Below are positions 20,732 through 42,565 of a stretch of 64,000 bases of DNA, piece by piece. The position numbers were made by a program, and so were the translations under genes. The stretch comes from Escherichia coli. GTDB lineage: Bacteria; Pseudomonadota; Gammaproteobacteria; Enterobacterales; Enterobacteriaceae. Position 1 is the stretch's first letter, and each line of letters opens with the position of its first letter. The notes below the pieces were generated by a model. That model saw only the letters and a list, made by a program, of their open reading frames with translations, ran no database searches and was not told where the DNA came from. The stretch is from assembly GCF_044324875.1 (NCBI RefSeq), contig NZ_CP172185.1; one strand, written 5' to 3'.

Positions 20732-20833
20732 ATGAAAGAGAATAAAGTACAACAAATCAGTCATAAACTGATTAATATCGTTGTTTTTGTCGCAATTGTA
20801 GAATACGCCTATTTATTTCTCCATTTCTATTAA
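20732..20833 (+). CDS. ykgR: Small hydrophobic protein YkgR (33 aa)
   Basis: MKENKVQQISHKLINIVVFVAIVEYAYLFLHFY; GAGG 7 nt upstream of ATG. Confidence 0.6.
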   Translation: MKENKVQQISHKLINIVVFVAIVEYAYLFLHFY

Positions 20834-21162
20834 TAACGGCAATAAACTGTTCACTTCAGTGATATTAAAAAATATGCATCCTCTCCCTTTTTTGTAAGTA
20901 ATTATTATATCCGTGGGAGAGGAATACACGCTGTCCGGCAATCAATCAAACTGCGATAAATCATCGGCCAGTAAAATGGAGATAGCCTCCATTCTCGAAA
21001 AATTCATACTCTCAGCGAAACCATCACTCATCAAGGCGTTTATGGGAGCGTCGCCAATGGCTGCTAACAATGCCAGACTTCCCCGTTGCCGAAATTCCAC
21101 ATACCACAAATGGTCACAGGGATTGGGTGTTGAAATGATCCGGATGAGCATGTATCTTTATG

Positions 21163-21455: not shown

Positions 21456-21595
21456 TGAAAGTCCTTAACTCTCTGCGTACCGCAAAAGAACGCCATCCAG
21501 ACTGTCAGATTGTGAAGCGAAAAGGACGGCTATATGTGATTTGTAAATCTAATCCACGTTTTAAGGCCGTTCAGGGTCGTAAGAAAAAACGTTGA
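21455..21595 (+). CDS. ykgO: Zinc-independent ribosomal protein L36 paralog (46 aa)
   Basis: [46 protein letters not shown]; ATG overlaps ykgM stop (ATGA); below track size cut-off. Confidence 0.85.
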
Positions 21596-22172
21596 TTCAA
21601 AATTCGACGAATTAACGATATTTGTCTGATTAATAATCAGACCGGATTAATGTTGGTGTATTTATTACACCAGCATTAATTTTCCTGAGGATGTATCTTC
21701 CTGTTCATTTAAGGTCAACTGCCTGACGTTTCTCTCCGAATATTCCATTATATTAATGTTGACTTGTTGACCAGGTGCGCCCTGTATGCTGGCATCAACT
21801 CTCTTTTAGACTGAACACGCCACTCAGTTTCCTCCCTTTGCGACGCAGCCTGCATTTACACTCAAACGGTTAAGATGATAAATGTGGTAAATCTGTTGGT
21901 ACTGACATAAAAACGTTTACGCCACAGGAACGGCCTGATCCACCGGTAACCCCATCGCCGACGTTCGAGTGCCAGTTAGAGTAACGCGCACAGATGACTG
22001 AATGCAGTGCCCTGGCAAAGAGGCCATCGTTCCTGTGACAACTGGCAGTCTTCGTTTAACTTCACTTAATTTGGCTCTTAGGGGGCTTACCGGACAGATG
22101 ACGTACTTACACCTGTTTAATTTTTCATCACTTATTGGGATGAACACCCATAACCATGGTAATGACTCCAAC

Positions 22173-36016: not shown

Positions 36017-36970
36017 ATGTCATACCCACTTTTTGACAAAGACGAGCACTGGCATAAGCCAGAGCAGGCGTTTCTCACCGATGACCACCGGACCATTCTG
36101 CGCTTCGCCGTAGAGGCGCTAATGTCCGGTAAAGGAGCGGTGCTGGTGACGCTGGTGGAAATACGCGGCGGCGCGGCGCGCCCGCTCGGGGCTCAGATGG
36201 TGGTGCGCGAAGATGGTCGTTACTGCGGTTTTGTCTCTGGCGGCTGCGTGGAGGCCGCTGCCGCTTTTGAAGCGCTGGAGATGATGGGCTCAGGCCGCGA
36301 TCGCGAAATTCGCTATGGCGAAGGTTCGCCGTGGTTTGACATCGTTCTGCCCTGCGGCGGTGGGATCACGCTGACGCTCCATAAACTACGCTCGGCACAG
36401 CCTCTGCTCGCCGTGCTGAACCGCCTGGAACAGAGAAAACCGGCGGGTCTGCGCTACGATCCGCAAGCACAATCGCTGGTGTGCCTGCCCACGCAAACCC
36501 GGACAGGCTGGAATCTCAATGGCTTTGAGGTGGGGTTCAGGCCATGCGTCAGGCTGATGATTTACGGACGTTCTCTTGAGGCGCAGGCAACCGCGAGTCT
36601 TGCAGCAGCCACAGGCTATGACAGCCATATCTTCGATCTTTTTCCGGCCTCAGCCAGCGCTCAGATCGATACCGATACGGCGGTCATTTTGCTGTGCCAT
36701 GATCTCAACCGGGAGCTGCCAGTGTTGCAGGCCGCGCGAGAAGCAAAACCCTTTTATCTCGGCGCATTGGGCAGCTATCGAACCCACACTTTACGTCTGC
36801 AAAAGCTCCACGAGCTGGGATGGTCCAGGGAGGAGACAGCGCAAATCCGGGCACCCGTCGGGATATTCCCCAAAACCCGGGATGCGCATACTCTGGCACT
36901 CTCCGTGCTGGCAGAAGTCGCCGCTGTACGTCTCCGTCAGGAGGATTCATGCCTGCCCCCATCGTCCTGA
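36017..36970 (+). CDS. paoD: XdhC-family molybdenum cofactor insertion chaperone
   Basis: XdhC/CoxI family; last gene of pao operon. Confidence 0.85.
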   Translation: MSYPLFDKDEHWHKPEQAFLTDDHRTILRFAVEALMSGKGAVLVTLVEIRGGAARPLGAQMVVREDGRYCGFVSGGCVEAAAAFEALEMMGSGRDREIRYGEGSPWFDIVLPCGGGITLTLHKLRSAQPLLAVLNRLEQRKPAGLRYDPQAQSLVCLPTQTRTGWNLNGFEVGFRPCVRLMIYGRSLEAQATASLAAATGYDSHIFDLFPASASAQIDTDTAVILLCHDLNRELPVLQAAREAKPFYLGALGSYRTHTLRLQKLHELGWSREETAQIRAPVGIFPKTRDAHTLALSVLAEVAAVRLRQEDSCLPPSS

Positions 36971-37056
36971 TCCTCGCGGCGGGGCGTGGGGAGCGCTTCC
37001 TCACCTCCGGGGGAAATACCCATAAATTAAGAGAAAAATCTGCAGTAGCCGTTTAA
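36949..37056 (+). pseudogene. 35-codon remnant of a MobA/MocA-like molybdopterin nucleotidyltransferase gene
   Basis: MPAPIVLILAAGRGERF (NTP-transferase LAAGxGxR motif) then unrelated tail and stop; ATG overlaps paoD 3' end; hairpin terminator at about 37085..37110. Confidence 0.45.
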
Positions 37057-37148
37057 GAAAATCACCTAAATCGTTTAAAAGAGCGCCCAACCCATAGTGG
37101 GCGCTTATCGCCTTGTGTAACTTATTCAGCAACGCGCGCCTCGCCGGA

Positions 37149-38342
37149 CTAAAGCGCACCGGCCTTCTGGCGTGCGGTAACAAAGGTCAGTACGCCAGCG
37201 CAAAGGAGCAGCACGCTACTCATAGCAAACGTGCTCTGCCAGCCAAGGCGGTCAAACACAATGCCTCCTGCCGTTGATCCAAGGGCGATGGCGAGCCGAA
37301 TCACCGCGACCATGAGCCCGCCTCCGGCTTCGGCGTTGTCAGGCAACGTACGCGCAATCCATGTCCACCATCCGGTTGGCGCGGCGGTGGCCAGCATGCC
37401 CCAGAGTCCTAACAGCAGCGAGACCGTCCAGACGTGATGCCCGGTAAGCATCAGACCGATGGCAATGACGGCCATCAGTCCGGGTATGGCCATCAGCGTG
37501 GGGTAGAATTTTCTGTTGAGAAATGCCGAAACAACCAGCGTGCCAATAAAACCGGCCACGCCGATAATCAGCAAAATCGACGACAAGCCTAAGGAATTAA
37601 CCCGTGTCACCGACTCCAGAAACGGGCGCACATAGGTGAATAGCGCAAACTGCCCCATGAAAAACAGGCCACAAGCTATCATGCCGACCACAACCATGCG
37701 GCGGCTAAATAAGCGGAATACCGCGCCACATGAAGTGTGGCTTTTATTCGCATCCATGCTTGGCAGGCTGATGCACTGCCAGATAAAGGCGACAACCGCG
37801 ATGGGCACCAGGCACAAGAAAGCGCCTCGCCATCCGACCGTAGCCCCCAGATAGCTTCCCAGCGGTGCGGCCACGACCGTCGCCAGCGCATTACCGGCGT
37901 TGAAAATTGCCAGCGCACGCGTGACCTGATGCTGCGGCACCAGACGAATCGCCGTTGCCGCTGACATCGACCAGAATCCGCCAATAGCCACACCAATCAT
38001 CGCACGACCGACCATATACATCAGATAACTGGAAGCCAGCGCAATAATAAGCCCCGATACGGCCATCAGAACCGTCATCCCCAGCAGCAGGAACTTACGA
38101 TTCATCTTTCCAGCTAGCGTTGAAAGCGTCAGGCTGGTCAGAACCGCCAGCGCGCCGGAGATAGCAATCCCCTGCCCTGCCAGCCCCTCCGTCACGCCTA
38201 AATCGCGGGTAATCGGCGTGAGCAGGCTGACGGGCATGAATTCAGAAGCAATCAGCACAAACACGCACAGGGTCATGGCAAAAATACCGCCCCAGTATGC
38301 GCGCTGATGATGAGGTGATAGTGTTTGGCTTAGTGTCGACAT
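37149..38342 (-). CDS. MFS-family transporter (397 aa)
   Basis: About 12 hydrophobic segments. Confidence 0.75.
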   Translation of the reverse strand: MSTLSQTLSPHHQRAYWGGIFAMTLCVFVLIASEFMPVSLLTPITRDLGVTEGLAGQGIAISGALAVLTSLTLSTLAGKMNRKFLLLGMTVLMAVSGLIIALASSYLMYMVGRAMIGVAIGGFWSMSAATAIRLVPQHQVTRALAIFNAGNALATVVAAPLGSYLGATVGWRGAFLCLVPIAVVAFIWQCISLPSMDANKSHTSCGAVFRLFSRRMVVVGMIACGLFFMGQFALFTYVRPFLESVTRVNSLGLSSILLIIGVAGFIGTLVVSAFLNRKFYPTLMAIPGLMAVIAIGLMLTGHHVWTVSLLLGLWGMLATAAPTGWWTWIARTLPDNAEAGGGLMVAVIRLAIALGSTAGGIVFDRLGWQSTFAMSSVLLLCAGVLTFVTARQKAGAL

Positions 38343-40625: not shown

Positions 40626-40839
40626 ACGTTAACAACGACCGACTCTTCACTGTGCAAAATTGTGTCAGGTAGTCCCTCTGCGTTCAATTCCAGGGTCTGC
40701 TTTGAGCGAGAAAGAGGGGACTATCCAGCAATGGAGATCACCCAAAAGAAAAAACCACCTGACTCCCTCGACAACCTTCATCCGGGCATTTAGCCTCAAT
40801 CAACATGTTTATATCTGTCAGGTTACTTCATGATGAAAA

Positions 40840-40989
40840 CTGATCATCATCGTTGTTTTTGTTGCAATAGTAGAATACGCGTATTTATTCCTCCATCTCT
40901 ATTAATAACGGCAATAAACTGTTCACTTCACTGATATTTAAAATATGTATCCTTTTCAAGCTGTTCAGCGGCGTAAGAAAAAGTATTAA
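40840..40989 (+). pseudogene. Decayed remnant of a ykgR-like gene fused to the 3' end of an rpmJ2-like gene
   Basis: 40840..40905 encodes LIIIVVFVAIVEYAYLFLHLY* with no start codon; 40945..40989 encodes MYPFQAVQRRKKKY* (compare RpmJ2 ...[11 protein letters not shown]); flanks align with 20768..20880 and 21558..21710. Confidence 0.5.
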
Positions 40990-41306
40990 TTATGAATTCG
41001 ACGATTTAACCATTTCAGTCTGATTGGTAATCATCTATGATTAATGCTGGTCTATTGATTACGCCAGCATTAACCGCTTAGGGATGTATTCTTCCTGTCC
41101 ATATAGCCCTCGAAAAAGAGAGAAAATAAAACTGTGTCCAATATTAATTTACCACTTCAGACCGAAACATCGGTGGAATTAGCAGGACGACTGGTACAGA
41201 AGGATGGTATAGCGTCATTTGTCGGGCATTCCATTGCCATAATAATGACAATTTTGAAGCAATAGCCGTGCTTCTTGATCATGTCTTAAAAATTATACCA
41301 TGAGCC

Positions 41307-41537
41307 TTATGAGGCATCATTTTTACTGACTGGTGTTAACTTTGCTATCATATAAACTCTGTTCTTAAAAAACGCGCCCAGAATTTTATATGATTTTCCT
41401 TGTTTTGCTGCCTGTAAAGAAATTTCTTTTTCAGTGCTGTCGATGGTTGAACCGACGGCAGTAATCGTTTTGGCGACGCTACTGAAGGATATTAAAGACA
41501 GTGTAACCACAACAATTAAAGAATAGATAATATTCAT
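41307..41537 (-). CDS. DUF1471 (YhcN/BhsA-like) small periplasmic protein
   Basis: Signal peptide then ...ITAVGSTIDSTEKEISLQAAKQGKSYKIL...; AGGAG ribosome-binding site. Confidence 0.55.
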   Translation of the reverse strand: MNIIYSLIVVVTLSLISFSSVAKTITAVGSTIDSTEKEISLQAAKQGKSYKILGAFFKNRVYMIAKLTPVSKNDAS

Positions 41538-41752
41538 GCTAATTCTCCTGACAATTGAGAGGATGAGTTTAATATACAAAGGCATTAAATATGAGTCATG
41601 TTTACTCCCTGTGAAAATAACCTTACTGTAATTAAACCTTCATCTCCTTCGGGGTGAGCAATGCAAAATATAATGCATCTTGCTATGCAAAACAGTGGAT
41701 ATAAATTTTCCTCGCGACCTATTTAATAAAACGTGAATATAAAAGTTAGTCT

Positions 41753-42304
41753 TCAGTTTGCAGATGCAGTAGGTCTGATGGTAATTTCGGTTGTATCAAC
41801 GCTTTCGGGAGATTCAATAATATGCCTTACAGCACGGGCAATATCCGCAGGTTGAAGTGCAACAGAACGGTAGGCGTCCATTGACTTCATGGTTTCCACA
41901 TGGGTAATGGTTGAAGCCAGTTCACTTTCTACAACCCCAGGATTTACGCAGGTCACACGGATTTTCGAGCTTTCCTGCCGTAAGCCATCCGAAATAGCCC
42001 GTACTGCAAATTTTGATGCGCAATAGACTGCGCCTGTGGGCACAACAGAAAGGGCACCAATAGAACCAAGATTGATTATCTGACCGGAACCCTGTGCTTC
42101 CATCACCGGAAGTACAGCGCCAATTCCCCAAAGTACACCTTTGATATTCACGTCAATAGTGAGCTCCCATTCATCTTGTTTTCCTGCTGCAAGCGGTGAA
42201 AGCGGCATAACGCCCGCATTATTGATAAGAACATCAACTCGCCCCCAGCTATCCAGCGCTACTTGCACGAAATCTGCCATGGACTGTCGGTCTGTGACAT
42301 CCAA
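41753..42304 (-). pseudogene. 5'-truncated short-chain dehydrogenase/reductase gene
   Basis: Has NNAG and YxxxK (YCASKFA) motifs but no N-terminal TGxxxGxG Rossmann segment; 5' end abuts the integrase remnant. Confidence 0.55.
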
Positions 42305-42475
42305 CTTGCATTTTCAGAAATGGGAGGCTGGGAGTCTATCGAAATGGTTCGTCGATATGCTCACCTTGCACCTAATCACCTTACCGAACACGCACGGCAA
42401 ATAGACTCAGTCCTGAACCCATCGGTCCCAAATTTGTCCCAGTCAAAAAAAAAGGAAGGTACTAATTATGTGTAA
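42263..42475 (+). pseudogene. C-terminal remnant of a tyrosine integrase gene beside thrW
   Basis: ...[21 protein letters not shown]... (catalytic Tyr region); ends 15 bp from the tRNA 3' end. Confidence 0.65.
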
Positions 42476-42489
42476 CTTATTGATTTAAA

Positions 42490-42565
42490 TGGTGCCGATA
42501 ATAGGAGTCGAACCTACGACCTTCGCATTACGAATGCGCTGCTCTACCAACTGAGCTATATCGGC
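42490..42565 (-). tRNA. thrW: tRNA-Thr (anticodon CGU)
   Basis: 76-nt cloverleaf GCCGATATAGCTCAGTTGGTAGAGCAGCGCATTCGTAATGCGAAGGTCGTAGGTTCGACTCCTATTATCGGCACCA. Confidence 0.9.

What the first reader, a model, noticed from the sequence alone, without database searches (positions are those of the whole stretch)
36949..37056. Truncated MocA-like cytidylyltransferase start overlapping the paoD stop
The ORF MPAPIVLILAAGRGERF... carries the NTP-transferase signature used by MobA/MocA enzymes, and its ATG overlaps the 3' end of paoD. Pao enzymes use the cytosine-dinucleotide form of molybdopterin made by MocA, so a dedicated cofactor gene once coupled to the operon and later truncated at the island boundary is plausible.
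Basis: inference. Interest (0 to 1): 0.4.

Follow-up and report, generated by a model that had tools for sequence, protein, structure and literature searches.

The report
Stump of a lost pao cofactor gene
The short reading frame after paoD in this E. coli window is the first 27 codons of a MocA-like nucleotidyltransferase gene that is still intact after paoD in many related bacteria; it is an ordinary gene relic, though it explains the odd start of the K-12 protein YagP.

Summary
The window is an E. coli chromosome. An ATG at 36949, 4 nt after an AGGAGG and 22 nt inside paoD, opens a 35-codon ORF.

Only codons 1-27 (36949-37029) are homologous to anything. They match 26 of 27 residues of intact 184-aa proteins.

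In more than 20 Enterobacteriaceae loci and in Asaia, a gene of 183-221 aa starts at or next to the paoD stop. In the closest relatives it has the same 22-nt overlap. These proteins carry Pfam NTP_transf_3. Their best NCBIfam match is MocA (TIGR03310), but below its cutoff, and they are only 21% identical to E. coli MocA.

None of 5,426 complete E. coli genomes holds more than the first 81 nt.

Homology to three independent intact copies stops exactly at 37029. What follows looks like the last codons of a hydrolase gene. In a Salmonella island that hydrolase gene lies about 7 kb downstream of the intact gene, just before the same MFS / alpha-beta hydrolase / LysR module seen in the window. The most likely cause is therefore one internal deletion.

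In K-12-type genomes a second deletion fused the stump in frame to a LysR fragment, producing YagP.

The ORF's length and tail vary among E. coli strains, so it is a relic, not a conserved peptide. Interest is low to moderate.

The parts
36017..36970 (+). paoD, the XdhC-family Moco insertion chaperone. Its last 22 nt overlap the remnant's start.
   Evidence: ORF list. RefSeq annotation of the 99.7% identical strain ETEC1738.
36939..36944 (+). Shine-Dalgarno sequence AGGAGG, 4 nt upstream of the remnant's ATG and inside paoD. This is the translational-coupling signal inherited from the intact gene.
   Evidence: Sequence. The same GGAGG-ATG layout is seen in the closest intact loci L003, L029 and L031.
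36949..37029 (+). Pseudogene remnant: codons 1-27 (MPAPIVLILAAGRGERFLTSGGNTHKL) of a paoD-coupled MocA-like NTP_transf_3 gene.
   Evidence: Matches intact P0001 at 26/27 residues. DNA homology to L003, L029/L030 and L031 ends exactly at 37029. The alignment includes the invariant AAG and the near-invariant R16 and K26 of the nucleotide-binding loop.
37030..37056 (+). Non-homologous tail of the ORF (REKSAVAV*), produced by read-through past the deletion junction.
   Evidence: No homology to the intact genes beyond 37029. Tail length and sequence differ among E. coli strains.
37029..37048 (+). Probable 3' stub (about the last 7 codons plus the TAG stop) of an alpha/beta-hydrolase gene. In related loci that gene sits convergent to the MFS gene. 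This is the right side of the deletion junction.
   Evidence: AAGAGAAAAATCTGCAGTAGC resembles L003 AAGCAAAAGAATTTGCAGTAGC (...KQKNLQ*) and L029 AAGGATAAAGACCTGCAATAGC (...KDKDLQ*). The E. coli variant L034 reads KRKNLQ* in frame. The match is short, so this is suggestive only.
37081..37106 (.). GC-rich hairpin (GAGCGCCCA / UGGGCGCUU) between the convergent pao and MFS transcription units. It is a likely terminator.
   Evidence: RNA fold: -16.6 kcal/mol, z -2.8 on the + strand; -15.2 kcal/mol, z -1.7 on the - strand. It was not called by the strict terminator scan because the T-run is too short.
37149..38342 (-). MFS transporter gene, the first gene of the MFS / alpha-beta hydrolase / LysR module now abutting the remnant.
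   Evidence: It is 80.8% nt identical to the MFS gene that lies about 7 kb downstream of the intact MocA-like gene in Salmonella island loci.

Best explanation
The ORF is a dead 5' stump of a fifth pao-operon gene, here nicknamed 'paoE-like'.

In the ancestor, and still today in many Enterobacteriaceae and in Asaia, a gene of about 185 aa for a MobA/MocA-family nucleotidyltransferase starts at or next to the paoD stop. In the closest relatives it starts 22 nt inside paoD, behind its own Shine-Dalgarno sequence, so it is translationally coupled to the chaperone gene. Its inferred job is to add CMP to Mo-molybdopterin, making the cytosine dinucleotide cofactor (MCD) that PaoD inserts into PaoC.

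In the E. coli lineage, a single deletion of about 7 kb removed codon 28 onward together with the downstream genes. It joined codon 27 to the last few codons of a hydrolase gene, next to the MFS / alpha-beta hydrolase / LysR module. E. coli supplies MCD from the unlinked mocA (ygfJ) gene, so the loss was tolerated.

The SD, ATG and 27 codons survive partly because the first 22 nt are paoD coding sequence. The ORF may still be translated into a short, meaningless peptide.

In K-12-type genomes a later deletion, from window position 37025/37026 into a LysR gene, fused the stump in frame to a LysR effector-domain fragment. That fusion is the annotated 136-aa pseudogene product YagP.

Shown here: the homology, the synteny, the breakpoint, the absence of an intact copy in E. 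coli, and the YagP chimera. Inferred: the enzymatic function of the intact gene, the single-deletion mechanism, and compensation by MocA.
For: Intact gene in relatives:
- Of 25 PaoD loci from other species, 23 give a near-full-length tblastn match to the gene directly after paoD. In L004 and L017 no intact ORF was found, so those two may be pseudogenes.
- Further intact examples are L031, L040 and L041.
- The 22-nt overlap with paoD is the same in L031 and L040 (8001 vs 8022; 1755 vs 1776) and in L003 and L029/L030.

Family:
- Pfam NTP_transf_3, E 1.5e-22.
- Top NCBIfam hits are TIGR03310 MocA (66-83 bits), NF045665 (DVU_1551 family, 84 bits and the top hit for L005) and PucB.
- PDB hit 2we9, a 'MocA-related protein'.

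Remnant and breakpoint:
- The remnant is 26/27 identical to P0001.
- Homology to three independent comparators ends at 37029.

Loss in E. coli:
- 0 of 5,426 complete genomes cover more than nt 1-81 of the L003 gene.

Deletion model:
- Salmonella island loci have intact gene, DLH, RR, HK, cupin, CMD, flavodoxin, abhydrolase, then MFS(-), abH(-) and a 294-aa LysR. The last three are in the same order and orientation as in the window, and the MFS gene is 80.8% nt identical.
- The junction resembles the abhydrolase 3' end.

Decay:
- O157:H7 has a 1-nt deletion giving a 26-aa product. L033 has lost the stop. L034 has an extra A. K-12 has R16C in the nucleotide-binding loop.

YagP:
- The K-12-type ORF equals YagP exactly.
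- ETEC1738 has both the MFS module and the yagP 3' end. K-type is therefore a secondary deletion.

Literature:
- PaoABC uses MCD made by MocA, and MocA interacts with PaoD (PMC3909100, PMC10845959).
- Pairing of xdhC-like and mocA-like genes is known elsewhere (PMC2997495).
Against: - The intact proteins are far from E. coli MocA: 21% identity, and NCBIfam scores well below the equivalog cutoff. They lack a stretch of roughly 20 residues that MocA has. A cytidylyltransferase role is therefore not proven.
- The single-deletion model rests on a proxy. The MFS gene is only 80.8% identical to the Salmonella-island copy, against 93.8% for paoD. The intergenic sequence 37049-37148 does not align to that copy. 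The hydrolase-stub match is only about 21 nt long. A replacement by recombination cannot be excluded.
- I could not check other Escherichia species, so the timing of the loss is unknown.
Confidence: 0.9

Rival explanations
1. The 35-codon ORF is a genuine small protein, or a retained coupling or regulatory ORF, kept by selection. For example, its translation might tune expression or stability of the paoD 3' end.
For: A strong SD and an ATG are intact in every E. coli copy examined. Gene callers report the ORF on more than 1000 contigs.
Against: The SD, the ATG and the first 7 codons are paoD coding sequence, so their conservation needs no extra explanation. Beyond that, the product is not conserved: it is 26 aa in O157:H7, the stop is lost in L033, the tail is frameshifted in L034, and it is 136 aa in K-12. 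K-12 also carries R16C.
Confidence: 0.05
2. The gene was cut by insertion or replacement with horizontally acquired DNA (an island boundary), not by an internal deletion of an ancestral block.
For: The pao-to-thrW interval is highly variable between strains and species. Integrases and prophages lie just downstream in K-12, ETEC1738 and L031. The MFS gene diverges more from the Salmonella-island copy than paoD does (80.8 vs 93.8%), and the intergenic DNA does not align.
Against: There is no GC step at 37030. The same MFS / abH / LysR module lies downstream of the intact gene, in the same order and orientation, in the Salmonella island. The junction resembles the end of the hydrolase gene that precedes the MFS gene there.
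Confidence: 0.2
3. The ORF is the start of a LysR-type transcriptional regulator, as several database entries name it.
For: Sources name the 35-aa product 'transcriptional regulator LYSR-type'. It shares its first 26 residues with YagP, which ends in a LysR substrate-binding fragment.
Against: The shared N-terminus aligns with NTP_transf_3 proteins, not with a LysR helix-turn-helix domain. RefSeq marks the YagP LysR part as 'missing N-terminus' and starts it right at the junction. The name is a carry-over from the chimera.
Confidence: 0.01
4. It is a chance ORF in the +2 frame of GC-rich paoD with a fortuitous G-rich motif.
For: The 35-mer alone hits no Pfam or NCBIfam model.
Against: It has 26/27 identity with intact proteins at the syntenic position, and the DNA homology extends 59 nt beyond the paoD stop.
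Confidence: 0.01

Closest known systems
E. coli MocA (YgfJ), the CTP:molybdopterin cytidylyltransferase
   Same: Same Pfam family (NTP_transf_3). Same N-terminal (L/T)AAGxxxR nucleotide loop, and the GHP and DIDT motifs. MocA is the best or near-best NCBIfam hit. The two proteins serve the same cofactor pathway: MocA makes MCD for PaoABC and interacts with PaoD (PMC3909100).
   Different: Only 21% identity. TIGR03310 scores of 66-83 bits against a cutoff of 186, whereas MocA itself scores 214. The pao-linked proteins lack an internal segment of about 20 residues and have a 4-residue insertion in the N-terminal loop. MocA is unlinked to pao. The activity of the pao-linked protein is untested.
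xdhC-like plus mocA-like gene pairs: B. subtilis pucA-pucB, Arthrobacter pAO1 xdhC-mocA, and an O. carboxidovorans operon
   Same: A Moco chaperone gene is immediately followed by, and co-transcribed with, a MocA homologue (PMC2997495). The intact paoD-'paoE' pairs found here have the same arrangement.
   Different: Those are intact systems in other phyla. [quoted passage not shown]
YagP (b0282) of E. coli K-12, annotated as a LysR-family pseudogene product
   Same: Its first 26 residues are this same remnant, with the same ATG overlapping paoD.
   Different: In K-12 a second deletion fused the stump in frame to a LysR effector-domain fragment. In this window the stump instead runs into the 3' end of a hydrolase gene and stops after 35 codons.

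Membership tests
MobA-like NTP transferase (Pfam PF12804, NTP_transf_3) | Significant match to the family profile | tested here: met
   The intact orthologue L027 scores E 1.5e-22 over residues 6-144. All 120 listed database relatives carry PF12804. The 35-aa remnant alone gives no hit because it is too short. Its membership is by homology to these proteins.
MobA-like NTP transferase (Pfam PF12804, NTP_transf_3) | N-terminal glycine-rich nucleotide-binding loop (L-x-A/G-G-x-x-x-R ... K) | tested here: met
   The remnant has LILAAGRGERF...HK. In the alignment that includes MocA, A10, A11 and G12 are invariant and R16 and K26 are near-invariant.
MocA / YgfJ equivalog (NCBIfam TIGR03310) | Score at or above the curated cutoff of 186.45 bits | tested here: not met
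   Intact orthologues score 66-83 bits. E. coli MocA scores 214 bits. The pao-linked gene is therefore MocA-like, not a MocA orthologue.
MocA / YgfJ equivalog (NCBIfam TIGR03310) | CTP-specific Mo-MPT cytidylyltransferase activity, and the CTP-specificity motifs reported for MocA versus MobA (TAAG vs LAGG; from my memory of Neumann et al. 2011, which could not be retrieved) | not testable with these tools
   The motif here is LAAG, which shares AAG with MocA. The second motif does not resemble either enzyme. Activity needs biochemistry.
Pseudogene (truncated gene remnant) | Homology to a full-length gene covers only part of it, and the rest is absent from the genome | tested here: met
   Only 27 of about 184 codons are retained. 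Homology ends at 37029. No E. coli genome has the remainder at this locus or anywhere else.
Pseudogene (truncated gene remnant) | No conservation of the residual reading frame or product | tested here: met
   Frameshift, stop loss, altered tail and a fusion are seen in different E. coli strains. The sample is small, six alleles.
pao operon member (translationally coupled to paoD) | Start codon overlapping the paoD 3' end, with an SD, conserved across species | tested here: met
   The 22-nt overlap and GGAGG are present in the window, L003, L029, L031 and L040. The start is adjacent or overlapping in about 20 further loci. Co-transcription itself was not tested.

The most novel reading that the evidence does not exclude
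The stump might not be inert. Because the SD and ATG are preserved inside paoD, ribosomes finishing paoD could re-initiate on it. In that case the 35-aa peptide in strains like this one, the 136-aa MocA'-'LysR chimera YagP in K-12, or the act of translating them would have acquired a role. Possible roles are protecting the paoD 3' end up to the shared terminator, or providing an effector-binding protein. Separately, the intact 'paoE-like' proteins may be an uncharacterised, shorter class of MCD synthase, the ancestral dedicated partner of PaoD.
Probability: 0.07. Interest if true: 0.45.

Novelty: new member of a known kind. Interest (0 to 1): 0.25.

Why it matters
- It shows that the textbook four-gene paoABCD operon of E. 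coli is a decayed five-gene operon. The ancestral unit carried its own MocA-like enzyme next to the chaperone PaoD, and E. coli's reliance on the distant mocA gene is a derived state. That gives an evolutionary context for the reported PaoD-MocA interaction.
- It points to an untested enzyme subfamily that could be tried for producing PaoABC-type enzymes in other hosts.
- It corrects annotation. RefSeq leaves the stump unannotated. Other sources call the 35-aa ORF a 'LysR-type regulator'. The N-terminus of K-12 YagP is of MocA-like, not LysR, origin.
- None of this changes how the pathway is understood.

Tried and rejected
- Pfam and NCBIfam scans of the 35-mer alone gave nothing. The only Pfam line was a meaningless LonC_helical hit at E 0.34.
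- The terminator and promoter scan of 36700-37400 found nothing. Rfam at E<=1 gave only two sub-threshold chance hits, Esr41 and skipping-rope.
- I tried to date the loss through Escherichia marmotae. The only named PaoD (P0193) sits on a 1.1-kb, error-ridden contig and is uninformative.
- The two key JBC papers on MocA (2009, 2011) are not held. The specificity-motif comparison therefore rests on my memory and is flagged as such.
- Literature searches for yagP, paoE, paoABCDE and yagQ found no prior description of the remnant. That library is incomplete.
- I considered that the K-12 and window arrangements arose by independent truncations at nearly the same codon. I rejected this because ETEC1738 carries both the MFS module and the yagP 3' end, so K-type is best read as a secondary deletion.
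- The window's intergenic stretch 37049-37148 does not align with the Salmonella-island intergenic region. The right breakpoint is therefore supported only by the short hydrolase-stub match.

Full report
**What is at the site**

The window is E. coli chromosome. Positions 36700-37400 are 99.7% identical to strain ETEC1738 and match 3,598 of 5,426 complete E. coli genomes. The local order is paoA-paoB-paoC-paoD (+), then an MFS transporter (-), an alpha/beta hydrolase (-) and a LysR regulator (+).

paoD ends at 36970. An ATG at 36949, preceded by AGGAGG at 36939-36944, opens the ORF MPAPIVLILAAGRGERFLTSGGNTHKLREKSAVAV*, which ends at 37056. RefSeq annotates nothing there.

**Is it a remnant of a real gene?**

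The 35-mer alone is too short for profile searches. I therefore looked at what follows paoD elsewhere.

A scan of one genome per species with PaoD returned 25 informative loci. In 23 of them, tblastn with the Leclercia copy gives a near-full-length match directly after paoD. These include Leclercia, Enterobacter, Silvania, Siccibacter, Pseudenterobacter, Cedecea, Dryocola, Kosakonia, Pseudescherichia, Pseudocitrobacter, Citrobacter sedlakii and Asaia. Most hold an intact ORF of 183-221 aa that begins M..SPVVLILAAGRGERFLASGG.THKL.... In L004 and L017 no intact ORF was found, so those copies may be frameshifted.

A protein search with the copy from the closest locus (L003; PaoD 89%, PaoC 94% identical to the window) found 492 relatives. 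All listed ones carry PF12804, and they are named 'nucleotidyltransferase family protein' or 'CTP:molybdopterin cytidylyltransferase'. The best of them, P0001, begins MPAPIVLILAAGRGERFLTSGGSTHKLAALLNGKP..., so 26 of its first 27 residues are identical to the window ORF.

Three further contigs show paoABCD followed by the 183-184-aa gene. In L031 and L040 the 22-nt overlap with paoD is the same as in the window.

**Family of the intact gene**

- Pfam NTP_transf_3, E 1.5e-22.
- Top NCBIfam hits are TIGR03310 (MocA/YgfJ; 66-83 bits), NF045665 (DVU_1551 family; the top hit for L005 at 84 bits) and PucB. All are well below the equivalog cutoffs. Genuine E. coli MocA scores 214 bits on TIGR03310.
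- Pairwise identity to MocA is 21%.
- The nearest solved structure is the 'MocA-related protein' 2we9.
- The alignment shows the shared AAG...R...K nucleotide loop and the GHP and DIDT motifs. It also shows a missing internal segment relative to MocA.

The gene is therefore MocA-like by family and by genomic context, but it is a separate subfamily. Its cytidylyltransferase activity is an inference.

That inference is reasonable. PaoABC carries the cytosine dinucleotide cofactor, MocA makes that cofactor and hands it to PaoD (PMC3909100, PMC10845959), and pairs of xdhC-like and mocA-like genes are known from Bacillus, Arthrobacter and Oligotropha (PMC2997495).

**Where and how it was cut**

BLASTN of the window against L003, L029/L030 and L031 gives continuous homology from pao up to exactly 37029 in all three cases, and nothing beyond (alignment). 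Codons 1-27 are therefore the remnant. REKSAVAV* is read-through.

No complete E. coli genome has more than nt 1-81 of the gene, either here or elsewhere in the genome.

The closest DNA relative of the stump is a copy in a Salmonella enterica island (L029/L030). There, a 5'-truncated paoD and the intact gene are followed by these genes:
- DLH hydrolase (-)
- response regulator
- histidine kinase
- cupin
- CMD
- flavodoxin
- abhydrolase (+)
- MFS (-)
- alpha/beta hydrolase (-)
- a 294-aa LysR (+)
- aldo-keto reductase

The last part of this order has the same module, order and orientation as in the window. The MFS gene is 80.8% nt identical.

The first roughly 20 nt after the junction (AAGAGAAAAATCTGCAGTAGC) resemble the last codons and stop of that abhydrolase gene in L003 and L029. 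In the E. coli variant L034 this stretch reads KRKNLQ* in frame, against KQKNLQ* in L003.

The simplest history is one deletion of about 7.1 kb, measured on the Salmonella proxy, from codon 28 to about 7 codons before the abhydrolase stop. This step is inferred. The stub match is short, and the intergenic DNA does not align with the proxy.

GC content shows no step at the junction. It is about 60% in pao, 57-58% in the MFS gene, and falls to 35% only at 40.8-41.8 kb. 'Island boundary' is therefore not literally right. The whole pao-to-thrW interval is, however, a rearrangement hot spot.

**The K-12 arrangement**

About three quarters of matching E. coli genomes share the window sequence only up to 37025 and then continue into a LysR fragment.

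In these genomes the stump's frame runs on in phase: MPAPVVLILAAGRGECFLASGGNTHK|CIGWRQ...QQLA, 136 aa. This is exactly the database protein YagP. YagP is therefore a chimera of 26 MocA-like codons and a LysR effector-domain fragment.

ETEC1738 has the window-type junction and also carries the last 231 nt of yagP further right. The K-12 type is therefore best explained as a second deletion in a window-type ancestor.

**Relic or functional?**

Six E. coli alleles were compared. The SD and ATG are always present, but they lie inside paoD. Downstream the product varies:
- 26 aa in O157:H7, from a 1-nt deletion
- stop lost in MEI003
- frameshifted tail in AF206
- R16C in the nucleotide loop in K-12
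- fused to the LysR fragment as the 136-aa YagP in K-12-type genomes

In some assemblies a frameshift even fuses PaoD, the stump and YagP into a 448-aa ORF.

This is the pattern of a decaying relic. A GC-rich hairpin at 37081-37106 probably terminates both convergent units. No Rfam family matches.

**Comparison with what is known, and novelty**

The gene family, the chaperone-transferase gene pairing and the cofactor pathway are all known. I did not find three things stated in the searchable literature:
- that E. coli's paoABCD is a truncated five-gene unit
- that the stump is fixed in E. coli
- that the stump forms the N-terminus of YagP

Public annotations either ignore the ORF or call it a 'LysR-type regulator', which is a carry-over from YagP.

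**Verdict**

This is a correct and well-reasoned first-stage call. It describes an ordinary pseudogene remnant with modest evolutionary and annotation value.

Noticed in passing
L029/L030 (whole loci); L037-L039: Salmonella enterica carries an island with TraI_2, a UvrD-like helicase, UmuD and a XerC-like integrase. These are followed by a 5'-truncated paoD (starting at window-equivalent 36174), the intact MocA-like gene, a two-component system, cupin, CMD, flavodoxin, hydrolases, and the same MFS / hydrolase / LysR / AKR module as in the window. Its MFS protein is indexed in 1,152 blocks of the collection. A piece of a pao flank from an Escherichia-like donor appears to have been mobilised.
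   Followed up: partly
window 36949-37056; protein P0151: The 35-aa ORF is called on more than 1000 public contigs and is named 'transcriptional regulator LYSR-type' by several sources. This is an annotation error propagated from the chimeric YagP.
   Followed up: yes
proteins P0168, P0172 (E. coli, 448 aa): In some E. coli assemblies a frameshift in the C-run at the end of paoD fuses PaoD, the MocA-like stump and the YagP LysR fragment into one 448-aa ORF, annotated as 'XdhC family protein'.
   Followed up: partly
window 36900-37029 compared with L029, L002, L032-L035: The window's allele of the paoD 3' end and stump (paoD is 317 aa, one codon shorter) is identical over about 70 nt to the Salmonella-island copy. 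It differs from the K-12 and O157 alleles. This suggests mosaic ancestry or recombination at this spot.
   Followed up: no
window 40800-42541: A 35% GC stretch holds a 92-aa ORF (41307-41585, -), a truncated short-chain dehydrogenase (41753-42304, -) and an integrase C-terminal fragment (42263-42475). A thrW-like attachment region (about 42463-42541) follows, next to proA and proB. This strain lacks the CP4-6 prophage that sits here in K-12.
   Followed up: partly
L036 (E. coli MARGA_4): An ISEc52 (IS3 family) element is inserted in paoD at window-equivalent position about 36870. It splits the chaperone gene just upstream of the stump.
   Followed up: no
L001 10147-10415 vs window 20765-20882 and 21559-21711: The ykgR-fragment region downstream of the LysR gene has a second, diverged copy (77-91% identity) about 20 kb upstream in the window.
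   Followed up: no
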